This document shows positions 48,264 to 51,943 of a DNA stretch of 64,000 nt, in pieces. The notes under the pieces are model-generated. The model was not told the origin of the DNA. It ran no database searches and saw only the letters and a program-made list of their open reading frames with translations. The stretch is from the human T2T-CHM13v2.0 reference genome, Homo sapiens. The stretch is from the NCBI RefSeq assembly GCF_009914755.1, contig NC_060927.1. One strand, given 5' to 3'. Position numbers and translations under genes: made by a program. Numbering within the stretch: the first letter of the stretch is position 1; each line of letters begins with the position of its first letter.

Positions 48264-49789
48264 CAAGTTAACATTTTTTTATTGTGGCAAAATATGCATA
48301 ACATAAAATTTACCATTTTCACCATTTAAAAATTTGTAAACTTCATTTTATTATTTAATGTGTAAGACTAATAAAAATACCATGAAAAGCAATTAGAATC
48401 ATAAATATAGTATTGTGGTGTTTTTTGTTTTTTTTGAGATGGTGTCTCGCTCTGTTGCCCAGGCTGGAGTGCAATGGCATGGTCTCGACTCATTGCAACC
48501 TCTGCCTGCTGGTTCAAGTGATTCTCCTGCATCAGCCTCCCAAGTAGATGGGACTATAGGTGCGTGCCACCACATCTGGCTAGTTTTTGTATTTCTAGTA
48601 GAGACAGGGTTTTACTATGTTGGCGAGGGAGATTCAAACTCCTGACCTCGTGATCCACCTGCCTCGGCCTCCCAAAGTGCTGGGATTATAGGCGTGAGCC
48701 ACAGCACCCGGCCTGTAATGGTTTTTTCTATGTAGACTTTGAAATTCTTTGATTATTGCATTATAAACCATTAATCTAAGTAATTAAGGAAACATCCAGA
48801 GAATTTTCTTTCACTAAATGTTTAAAGGAGTTTCTTTTCTTTTAATTTAGATCGTAGTTGAAGGAGATGGAGAAAGAGTAGGTCCTTTTTTTTTTTTTTT
48901 TTTTTTTGAGACAGTTTCGCTCTTGTCACCCAGGCTGGAGTGCAATGGCGTGATCTCAGCTCACTGCAACCTCTGCCTCCTGGGTTCAAGCAATTATCCT
49001 GCCTCAGCCTTCTGAGTAGCTGAGATTACAGGCGCCCACTACCATGGCTGGCTAATTTTTGTATTTTTAGTAGAGATGGGGTTTCATGATGTTGGCCAGG
49101 CCGGCCTCAAACTCCTGACCACAGGTGATTCTCCCGCCTTGGCGTCCCAAACTGCTAGGATTGCAGGCATGAGCCACCGCACCTAGTGAGCAGGTCCTTC
49201 TTAGATTACTGATTGAAATTGCAGTGTAGACCCTTTCATTTTCTTTTCATAATCTTCAAATTTCTCATACTGAGTGACAAAGAATTTATTCCTCCAGTCT
49301 TCAGAAATATCCTTTCTTATGAAGGGAGACAGAATGGTCCATCTGATCATTTTCCATAGTGGTATAATTTCCACTAGGATTCTGCTTTATCACATCAGAA
49401 GAGCTATACCAGAGGGTTTTTCCCACAGTTTCTTCTGGCACGTCTTTCTCTATTTAACAGCTTCTGAATTCCACACTTTGAATTCTCTTTCATGTCTTCA
49501 TAAAAATAGGTAAAAGATACAAAAGTCTTTTCCTTTTCTCCCAGCAGTTTCTGGTATAGTCATACTAGAAACCAAAACACAGCTTTACAGCCATGAATTT
49601 ATCCAGGAACTCCTCCTAGGTTCCAGGCTCTGGGTGCATTTTTGCCAACTGGTAGAAATAATAAGACACAGCCACATCTTTGGCATTCCATGCCATGAAG
49701 GTTATCCTGCAGTCATTCTTCTGAAATAAAGAAGGGAGAAGTTGAATGTGTAGGTATGTTTTCACCAATCAAGGAGATTGCATGTTTTT

Positions 49790-50119
49790 ATTTTATTTAT
49801 TTTATTTTTATTTTATTTTATTTTTTTTTTTTTTGAGACGGAGTCTTGCTCTGTCACCCAGGCTGGAGTGCAGTGGCGCAATCTCGGCTTACTGTTAGCT
49901 CTGCCTCCCAGGTTCATGCCATTCTCCTGCCTCAGCCTCCCAAGTAGGTGGGACTACAGGCGCCTGCCACCATGCCCAGCTAATTTTTTTGTATTTTTTT
50001 TAGTAGAGACGGGGTTTCACCATGTTAGCCAGGATGGTCTCGATCTCCTGACCTCGTGATCAGCCCGCCTCAGCCTCCCAAAGTGCTGGGATTACAGGCG
50101 TGAAACACCACGCCCAACC
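49790..50119 (-). mobile_element. AluY interrupting the SULT CDS remnant
   Basis: 17-bp TSD GGAGATTGCATGTTTTT at 49773-49789 and 50120-50136. Confidence 0.95.
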
Positions 50120-51006
50120 GGAGATTGCATGTTTTTCAACTGCTCAACACCACTTGTGAGTTTGGGAATTATAAATTCCATGAAAGGCACTTAGTTTGTA
50201 TATTGCAACCCATTTAAATTTCTCTGCATCCCCATTGTTACGGATCAAATCCAGTGTTTCACAGATCCAGTTTTGGGACAGGTGGAGGTCAGAAGGTCAT
50301 TTGGTTGTGCCTCAAGCAACCCCACCTGGGACCACTCCTTAGCAATGCTCCAGAGGAGGAGAATATGCTGAACATCCACTCATTCCCTCCTGAAGCTATT
50401 CTGCTTCTTGTCAATTTGAGGAGATTTTTCTGAAGTGCAATTTTTTATCTTCCTTTGTTTTCAACCTTTTTCAACTCCACCCCTGCCTTACCTCATTCAA
50501 ATTGATTGATTGATTGATTGACTGAGACGGAGTCTCAGTCTGTCGTCCAGGCTGGAGTGCAATGGCGTGATCTTGGCTCACCACAACCTCTGCCTCCCAG
50601 GCTCAAGTGATTCTCCTACGCCCGGCCTCATTCAAATATTTTTTATTTAAAAAGATTACAGGGTGGGCTCAGTGGCTCATGCCTGTAATCTCAGGACTTT
50701 GGGAGGCCAAGGCAGGTGGATCACTTGAGGCCAGAAGTTCAAGACCAGCCTGGCCAATATGGTGAAACCCCATCTCCACTAAAAATACAAAAAATTAACT
50801 GGGCATGGTGGCACAGGCCTGTACTCCCAGCTACTCAAAGAACCTCTTGAACCTGGAGGTGGAGGCTGCAGTGAGCTGAGATCAAGCCACTGCACTCTAG
50901 CCTGGGTTACAGAGTGACTCTGTCTCAAAAAAAAAAAAAAAAAGAAAAGAAAAGAAAAGAAAAGGAAAGGAAAAAGATTATGGTTATGGTTATGGTTCAA
51001 ACTATT

Positions 51007-51425
51007 TGGCAAAAGACAATCAATGACAAAATTATAGGCTGTGCACGGTGGCTCATGCCTGTAATCCCAGCATTTTTGGAGGTCGAGGCAGGCAGATCAC
51101 CTGAGGTCAGGAGTTCGAGACCAGCCTGACCAACATGGTGAAACCCTGTCTCTACAAAAAATACAAAAATTAGCCAGGCGTAGTGGCAGGTGCTTGTAAC
51201 CCCAGCTACTTGGGAGGCTGAGGCACAAGAATCACTTGAACCCAGGAGGTAGAGCCTGCAGTGAGCCAAGATTGCACCACTGCACTCCAGCCTGGGCAAT
51301 AGAGTGAGACTCTTTCTCAAAAAAAAAAAAGTTATAATAAATTTAGCTTAAAGACTTCAACTGGCTTTATTTGTGATTCTAGAATCAAGGCAACACTTTA
51401 TTCTTTAAAATAAACTAAGTGTTCC
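51007..51425 (-). mobile_element. R-U5 fragment of an ERV1 LTR (LTR37-like) forming the 5' end of the retrocopy; split by an Alu (+, 51037-51330)
   Basis: Minus strand GGAACACTTAGTTTATTTTAAAGAATAAAGTGTTGCCTTGATTCTAGAATCACAAATAAAGCCAGTTGAAGTCTTTAAGCTAAATTTATTATAA…TTGTCTTTTGCCA resembles recalled LTR37/MER4-group 3' ends. Confidence 0.6.
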
Positions 51426-51943
51426 CCCATTTTAGTCATTTTTAAGTGAACAGTTCTATGGCATTAAACATATGCACATTGTTGTTCAACCATCACCACC
51501 ACCCATCTGCAGAACTCTTCTGTCTTTCCCAACGGAAACTTTGTACCATTAAACACTAAGTCCCCATTCTCCACCCCAGCCTCAGTACCACCATTCTACT
51601 TTCTGTCTGTATGAATTTGACTACTCTAGGTACCTCATATAAGTGGAATAATAAAGTATTTGTATTTGTCCTTTTGGCCTATTTCACTTAGCATAATATT
51701 ATTAAGGTTCATGCATGTAATAGCATGTGTCAGAATGTCCTTCCTTTTCAAGGCTGAATTATATTTCACTGTCTGTGTATACCATACTTTTTAAATTCAT
51801 TCATCCATTGACAAACACTTGAGTTACTTCCACATTTTAGCTATTGTGATTAATGCTGCTATGAACATGGGTGTACAAATATCTGTTCAAGTCTCTCATT
51901 TCACTTCTTTTGTTTATGTATCATAAGTAAAATGACTGGATCA

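What the first reader, a model, noticed from the sequence alone, without database searches (positions are those of the whole stretch)
48313..51443. Full-length SULT1D1 retrocopy with definable ends, missed by the ORF track
Seen: an L1MB 3' end stops at CCATTTTCACCATTT (48313-48327) and resumes at CCATTTTAGTCATTT (51427-51441; 12/15 identical). The right copy runs into TTTTT/AA, the L1 endonuclease consensus. Between them, on the minus strand, lie a 5' leader, an intronless sulfotransferase CDS (50415-49201), a 3' UTR and AATAAA about 20 nt from the end. Six Alus landed in it later. Inference: an L1-mediated retrocopy of a complete mRNA, older than the Alus it carries.
Basis: partly seen in the sequence, partly recalled or inferred. 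Interest (0 to 1): 0.7.

Follow-up and report, generated by a model that had tools for sequence, protein, structure and literature searches.

The report
Dead SULT1D1 retrocopy with retroviral-LTR start
This is a broken, intron-less copy of the sulfotransferase gene SULT1D1, already annotated as a pseudogene, whose front end is a piece of a retroviral-type repeat not found near the parent gene, so it likely preserves a transcript from a promoter that the human parent gene has since lost.

Summary
The retrocopy is real, and RefSeq already lists it as SULT1D1P2. Without its six Alus the insert is 1,383 nt. It matches all seven coding exons and the 3' UTR of the chr4 SULT1D1 pseudogene, with no introns (CDS 714/865 identical). 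Other copies of the host L1 carry the 15-bp target once, so the duplication is genuine. The ORF is dead: start lost, 4 stops, 6 frameshifts. No poly(A) tail remains.

Its first 120 nt are the 3' end of a ~520-bp LTR-like repeat. They start 30 nt after that family's TATA box, where transcription is predicted to begin. Next come 125 nt of unknown origin, and parent homology begins at the exon-2 acceptor.

Best reading (0.55): L1 copied a full-length, LTR-initiated, spliced mRNA about 45-65 Mya (inferred), while the parent was still under selection, and the LTR first exon was later lost from chr4. Rivals are a far-upstream or undetected source, or a chimera made in trans. It is an ordinary pseudogene with one twist that I did not find in print and that primate genomes can test.

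The parts
48266..48327 (-). Host L1 3'-end fragment, left piece (family label L1MB is recalled, not tested)
   Evidence: contiguous with the right piece in paralogous copies
48313..48327 (.). Target-site duplication, copy at the retrocopy's 3' end
48347..48352 (-). AATAAA polyadenylation signal, 19 nt before the TSD; the parent reads TATAAA here; no poly(A) tail remains
48328..49200 (-). 3' UTR, 261 nt without two Alus, colinear with chr4 from about 73126690 to 73126444
48421..48720 (-). Alu 1, in the 3' UTR, absent from the parent; weak 7-bp flanking repeat, so its ends are approximate
48888..49187 (-). Alu 2, just after the stop codon, absent from the parent
49201..50415 (-). Intronless SULT1D1 CDS remnant, 868 nt without the Alu; ATG reads ATT, 4 premature stops, 6 frameshifting indels, one 3-nt deletion
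49790..50119 (-). Alu 3, inside the CDS, 17-bp perfect TSD, absent from the parent
50416..50424 (-). Start of homology to parent exon 2, at its acceptor
50425..51006 (-). Leader of unknown origin, 125 nt without Alus 4 and 5; holds an unused donor-like AG|GTAAG and a 2-codon upstream ORF
50503..50625 (-). Alu 4, a short internally deleted copy with a 12-bp TSD
50659..50970 (+). Alu 5, 10-bp TSD
51007..51426 (-). 3' end (predicted R-U5) of an LTR-like repeat, 120 nt without Alu 6, with a 10-nt extra stretch near its end; first base lies 30 nt after the family's TATA box (MER31-type name is recalled, not tested)
51037..51327 (+). Alu 6, inside the LTR piece
51427..51441 (.). Target-site duplication, copy at the retrocopy's 5' end, followed by TTTTT/AA
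51427..51940 (-). Host L1 fragment, right piece
   Evidence: 75-77% identical to the 39 other copies listed

Best explanation
The insert is an intronless, dead copy of SULT1D1 flanked by a target-site duplication in an old L1, and it was likely made by L1 from a full-length mRNA that began at a promoter in an LTR then lying upstream of the chr4 gene. Steps: (1) Inferred: an LTR upstream of SULT1D1 fired 30 nt after its TATA box, probably in germ line or early embryo. (2) Inferred: the transcript ran through the LTR end and 125 nt of flank, then spliced to exon 2. (3) Shown: exons 2-8 are joined and the copy ends just after the poly(A) signal. (4) Shown for the target site, inferred for the enzyme: it was inserted at a TTTTT/AA site with a 15-bp duplication, the mark of L1 target-primed reverse transcription. 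(5) Shown: it decayed, and Alus absent from the parent landed in it. (6) Inferred: the LTR first exon was later deleted from the human chr4 locus. The copy is predicted to have no enzyme function.
For: Retrocopy: exon-joined match to chr4, with 5 of 6 junctions seamless and the first inside a 10-nt deletion; 3' UTR match; empty-site test on L1 paralogs; best PDB hit 120 bits against 81 for the next, to the sequence shared by 2ZPT and 2ZVP, and 2ZVP is named SULT1D1 in PMC10939482 (passage); SULT1D clade support 100/99.

LTR start: the first 120 nt match a dispersed ~510-530-bp repeat that ends in TGACA. Of 9 copies examined, 4 have TATAAA with the first T at -30 from the insert's first base and 1 has a TATA-like word at -28. 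A random break in a 520-bp element would fall within 2 nt of that site about 1% of the time (my estimate).

Splicing: homology to the parent starts at the exon-2 acceptor, and extension into the intron was not significant (30 of 100 shuffles scored as high).

Parent alive at the time: amino-acid changes were 74 on the retrocopy branch, 19 on the parent branch and 10 ambiguous, over 294 columns. This fits a loss at 14-25 Mya (PMC2134963, section read). LTRs commonly supply germ-line first exons (PMC5538554, passages; that paper concerns ERVL LTRs).
Against: No trace of the LTR or its flank was found in 121 kb upstream of parent exon 2, so the cis source must be assumed deleted. The start site is predicted from spacing only; 4 of 9 copies lack an intact TATA word. 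The leader holds a good donor-like AG|GTAAG that was not used, and the junction itself is uncertain by about 12 nt. No poly(A) tail remains. The one extra G at the 5' end is not evidence of a cap, because 2 of 9 LTR copies also read GGG there.
Confidence: 0.55

Rival explanations
1. Same mechanism, but the LTR first exon still exists on chr4, either more than 121 kb upstream (the transcript skipping SULT1E1) or too decayed for my searches.
For: Genome-wide DNA searches with 66-81-nt queries need exact seed words and returned only the self match. Only 40 of 139 LTR candidates were scored.
Against: Other exons of 95-100 nt were found easily at 78-84% identity. No copy of the LTR family was found in 73.05-73.27 Mb.
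Confidence: 0.17
2. A chimera made in trans: L1 reverse transcriptase switched from the SULT1D1 mRNA to an unrelated LTR-initiated RNA, or the two RNAs were trans-spliced, and copying went on to that RNA's 5' end.
For: It explains the missing cis source without a deletion. L1 chimeras by template switching and trans-splicing are described (PMC13174262, passages). The leader's LTR piece is about as close to other copies (83-88%) as they are to each other (mean 86%), so the family is of comparable age.
Against: A template switch has no reason to fall at the exon-2 acceptor. No donor locus was found: 0 of 39 LTR-copy flanks matched, and the pattern search gave 2 non-self hits against 2 control hits.
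Confidence: 0.18
3. The leader is DNA filler captured during integration, or an LTR that inserted later and lost its U3 part by deletion, so the start position is coincidence.
For: No transcript evidence was available here.
Against: It needs two coincidences: a break at TATA+30 directly against the TSD, and a join at the exon-2 acceptor.
Confidence: 0.08
4. Not a retrocopy but a DNA duplication, or a copy of another SULT1 subfamily.
For: No poly(A) tail.
Against: All six introns are absent, the TSD holds, and SULT1E1 and SULT1B1 fall outside the clade at 100/99.
Confidence: 0.01

Closest known systems
SULT1D1P2 (RefSeq pseudogene, window 49237-50310)
   Same: It is this locus.
   Different: The annotation covers only part of the CDS. 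The insert runs 48328-51426, with TSDs, 3' UTR and an LTR-derived 5' end. I recall that Freimuth et al. 2004 (PMID 14676822) described a chromosome 3 SULT1D pseudogene; the paper was not held, so I saw none of its text.
L1-mediated processed pseudogenes
   Same: No introns, TSD, endonuclease-type site, end just after the poly(A) signal.
   Different: No poly(A) tail is left, and the 5' exon has no counterpart at the present parent locus.
LTR-derived first exons and promoters (PMC5538554, passages)
   Same: The transcript is predicted to start in an LTR, with a partial 5'-exon contribution and the donor in the flank.
   Different: Here the LTR piece lies inside the TSDs and lacks U3, so it travelled with the mRNA. 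It is not an LTR that recycles an already inserted pseudogene.
Retrocopies as records of ancestral transcripts (PMC7692494, passages)
   Same: The copy preserves an exon structure from the past.
   Different: The recorded first exon cannot be found in the human parent at all.
L1 chimeric insertions (PMC13174262, passages)
   Same: The 5' piece starts at a predicted RNA 5' end, in sense orientation, inside one TSD pair.
   Different: The 3' partner is a cellular mRNA rather than L1, and no trans donor was found.

Membership tests
L1-mediated processed pseudogene | Introns of a multi-exon parent precisely absent | tested here: met
   6 of 6 introns absent; 5 junctions seamless, 1 inside a 10-nt deletion
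L1-mediated processed pseudogene | Target-site duplication of about 7-20 bp | tested here: met
   12/15; motif matched at the junction in 11 of 11 usable L1 paralogs, with a second match as good elsewhere in only one
L1-mediated processed pseudogene | Endonuclease-type site TTTT/AA | tested here: met
   the same site is in the paralogs
L1-mediated processed pseudogene | 3' poly(A) tract | tested here: inconclusive
   no tract is present; only 3 A of the TSD follow the parent-like end. Erosion with age and a tailless insertion cannot be told apart
L1-mediated processed pseudogene | Disabled reading frame | tested here: met
   start lost, 4 stops, 6 frameshifts
SULT1D subfamily (by descent) | Best match and tree placement with SULT1D1 | tested here: met
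Active cytosolic sulfotransferase | Intact PAPS-binding loop and catalytic His (roles recalled) | tested here: not met
   the loop is cut by the 10-nt deletion and the His of KTH reads Tyr
LTR-initiated transcript | 5' piece belongs to an LTR-like family with defined ends | tested here: met
   9 of 9 copies end in TGACA; uninterrupted ones are about 510-530 bp; a 4-bp flanking repeat is perfect in 1 and 3/4 in 2 of 9
LTR-initiated transcript | 5' end about 30 nt after the TATA box, in sense orientation | tested here: met
   -30 in 4 of 9 copies, -28 in 1, no intact word in 4
LTR-initiated transcript | Source LTR in cis at the parent gene | tested here: not met
   none in 121 kb upstream of exon 2 in human; other primates could not be searched
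LTR-initiated transcript | Measured transcription start (CAGE or 5' RACE) at that base | not testable with these tools
   no expression data
MER31-type ERV1 LTR | Match to the Dfam/Repbase model | not testable with these tools
   name recalled; PMC5753468 lists MER31A/B among MER4-related LTRs but the passages give no sequence

The most novel reading that the evidence does not exclude
The copy is the only surviving record of a retroviral-LTR promoter that once drove SULT1D1 in the germ line or embryo of early monkeys and has since vanished from the human locus. It would map that start site to the base and give a dated snapshot of the working gene before apes lost it.
Probability: 0.55. Interest if true: 0.42.

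Novelty: new member of a known kind. Interest (0 to 1): 0.28.

Why it matters
The pseudogene itself is ordinary and annotated. If the leader reading holds, it shows how a gene known mainly from gut and kidney (mouse data, PMC11625864, passage) came to be expressed where L1 could copy it heritably. It would also record a promoter that cannot be read from the human parent locus, and supply an outgroup sequence for dating the loss of SULT1D1 in apes. It suggests a general screen: retrocopies whose 5' end sits 30 nt after an LTR TATA box as a catalogue of extinct LTR promoters.

Tried and rejected
- Leader against the parent region: local alignment against 61 kb upstream of exon 2 scored within the range of 8 shuffles. 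BLASTN against the next 60 kb gave only short hits of 13-26 nt at E 0.04 or worse.
- Genome-wide DNA searches with two leader pieces returned only the self match; these are low in sensitivity.
- Pattern search with up to 3 mismatches: 2 non-self hits against 2 control hits.
- 3' flanks of 39 LTR copies against the 125-nt flank: the best score (35) was below its own shuffle maximum. Two copies beat all 40 shuffles, but at scores of 25-27.5, far below what a true source would give. LTR ends were placed by a loose motif and may be off in some.
- Homology running into parent intron 1: not significant. A first attempt was mis-anchored and is discarded.
- APOBEC-type G-to-A excess: weak (G>A 35 against A>G 27; 9 of 45 polarised changes), rejected.
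- A cap-derived extra G: inconclusive.
- Placing the copy among simians by tree: support only 45/88, and the alternative is not rejected (p-AU 0.47). A third clade test did not finish.
- Several residues shared with the human parent (codons 33, 128, 130) lie at likely CpG sites and differ in the titi or chimpanzee-labelled proteins, so I did not use them for dating.
- The Rfam scan gave only Alu-related matches below the gathering scores.
- One search used the wrong frame and found nothing.
- Literature: a search for SULT1D1 + LTR + retro found 0 papers. A search for SULT1D2P / SULT1D1P2 / SULT1D1P found 4 papers, one naming SULT1D1P2 once; I saw the listing only. Most subscription papers are not covered, and I read no supplements.

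Full report
Observation. The repeats at 48313-48327 and 51427-51441 match at 12 of 15 bases. To test whether they are a real target-site duplication, I used other genomic copies of the host L1 as stand-ins for the empty site. Of 39 non-self hits listed, I fetched the 12 whose match began at the junction and dropped one that I cut at the wrong end. In the 11 left, the motif matches at the junction (11-14 of 15), and only one has an equally good second match nearby. The window's left flank aligns directly upstream of it, beating all 200 shuffles in 9 of 11, while the insert's 5' end does so in none. So 3.1 kb was inserted into one L1 at a TTTTT/AA site. The L1MB label is recalled.

Content. Removing six Alus leaves 1,383 nt: 120 nt of LTR-like sequence, 125 nt of unknown origin, 9 nt of exon-2 UTR, 868 nt of CDS and 261 nt of 3' UTR. 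The CDS and 3' UTR match seven exons on contig C4 between 73148728 and 73126444, minus strand, at 76-88%. This is the locus between the SULT1E1-like and SULT1B1-like genes. SULT1D1 is listed as a chr4 unitary pseudogene in PMC2864566 (table passage). Against the spliced parent the CDS is 714/865 identical; five junctions are seamless and the first falls within a 10-nt deletion. The best solved-structure match scores 120 bits against 81 for the next, and one of its entries, 2ZVP, is named SULT1D1 in PMC10939482 (passage). Of 28 database proteins returned, 17 carry a SULT1D1 name in the listing. A tree of 19 rows puts the copy in the SULT1D clade at 100/99. The copy is dead: ATG reads ATT, and there are four stops, six frameshifts and one 3-nt deletion. 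At the 3' end AATAAA lies 19 nt before the TSD and parent-like sequence runs almost to it; no poly(A) tract is left.

The leader. The 245 nt upstream of exon 2 have no match in 121 kb upstream of the parent's exon 2. The first 120 nt belong to a dispersed repeat (139 candidates, 40 scored). Nine copies read in full end in TGACA; the uninterrupted ones are about 510-530 bp, and some show a 4-bp flanking repeat, so the family is LTR-like. I recall it as MER31-type but could not test the name. The insert holds only the last part of the element, in sense orientation. Its first base lies 30 nt after the first T of TATAAA in 4 of 9 copies and 28 nt after a TATA-like word in one; four copies have no intact word there. 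That spacing is the usual distance from TATA box to Pol II start (established knowledge). After the LTR end come 125 nt with no source found. Homology to the parent starts at the exon-2 acceptor, uncertain by about 12 nt, and extension into the intron is not significant (30 of 100 shuffles).

Mechanism. A 5' end at a predicted start site and a join at an acceptor both point to an RNA: an LTR-initiated first exon spliced to exons 2-8 and copied whole by L1. The weak point is the missing source. I put deletion from the human chr4 locus at 0.55, a far or decayed cis source at 0.17, a trans chimera at 0.18 and DNA-level coincidence at 0.08. These weights are judgement, not computation. The parent's upstream region has been remodelled: a GC-richer block of about 9.6 kb with 261-bp terminal repeats (93% alike) and a weak Gag matrix match (E 4e-4, below Pfam's cut-off) lies 9-19 kb upstream of exon 2. 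It is not of the leader's family and does not prove a deletion.

Age. Between copy and parent, dS is 0.30 and dN 0.17, and 11 of 56 four-fold sites differ. Polarised by outgroups, 74 amino-acid changes fall on the copy's branch, 19 on the parent's and 10 are ambiguous. The parent therefore stayed under purifying selection for most of the time since, in line with a loss 14-25 Mya (PMC2134963, section 8 read). Copy and parent share a one-codon deletion near the C-terminus that 7 of 7 non-simian proteins aligned lack, tarsier included; this suggests an origin after the tarsier split. The tree does not confirm that grouping (45/88; p-AU 0.47 for the alternative), and some shared residues look like parallel CpG decay. 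The five near-full-length Alus differ by 6-9% from the window's majority Alu at non-CpG sites, against 14-19% for the oldest 6 of 59. An age of about 45-65 My is my inference from these numbers and recalled primate branch lengths.

Comparison. It meets the tested marks of an L1 processed pseudogene except the tail, which is inconclusive. It works like an LTR first-exon co-option (PMC5538554, passages), but membership lacks the cis source. Retrocopies as records of old transcripts are known (PMC7692494, passages), as are L1 chimeras made in trans (PMC13174262, passages). Passages of PMC5470649, PMC5338094 and PMC5753468 added nothing decisive. I found no paper on an LTR start for SULT1D1 or on this copy's anatomy (listings only). 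The 2004 database paper was not held, most subscription papers are outside the library, and supplements were not read; any of these may bear on the novelty claim.

Verdict. Interest 0.28.

Noticed in passing
G000:C4:73157867-73167464 (loci L017-L018): Provirus-like block of about 9.6 kb between the SULT1E1-like gene and the SULT1D1 pseudogene: GC 44-50%, 261-bp terminal direct repeats 93% alike, a second internal repeat pair with ~100-bp tandem units, and a 276-aa open frame on the + strand with a weak Gag matrix match. An ERV9/LTR12-type identity is recalled, not tested.
   Followed up: partly
G000:C4:73148717-73126691: The parent pseudogene keeps its frame over 885 nt with two stops (codons 22, 37). 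Two donors and one acceptor are non-canonical (after exons 2 and 4, before exon 7). The retrocopy has Trp at codon 22 and no stop at 37.
   Followed up: partly
window 50503-50625: Alu 4 joins the first few bases of an Alu directly to part of the right arm and has a TCAA-repeat tail, with a clean 12-bp TSD. It sits immediately before the donor-like AG|GTAAG.
   Followed up: no
L030 and L034 (LTR-like copies on C6 and C15): In 2 of 9 LTR copies an Alu-type A-tail sits at the position of the TATA box, as if the TATAAA word were a preferred L1 endonuclease target.
   Followed up: no
protein P0006: The chimpanzee-labelled UniRef protein differs from the human parent at 7 positions between codons 97 and 173, more than I would expect. 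The label may belong to another member of its cluster.
   Followed up: no
window 47965-48265, 51943-52230, and from about 52330: The host L1 is interrupted again: an Alu in its tail, an Alu near 51943, and from about 52330 a stretch that looks like another LTR-type repeat (by eye).
   Followed up: no
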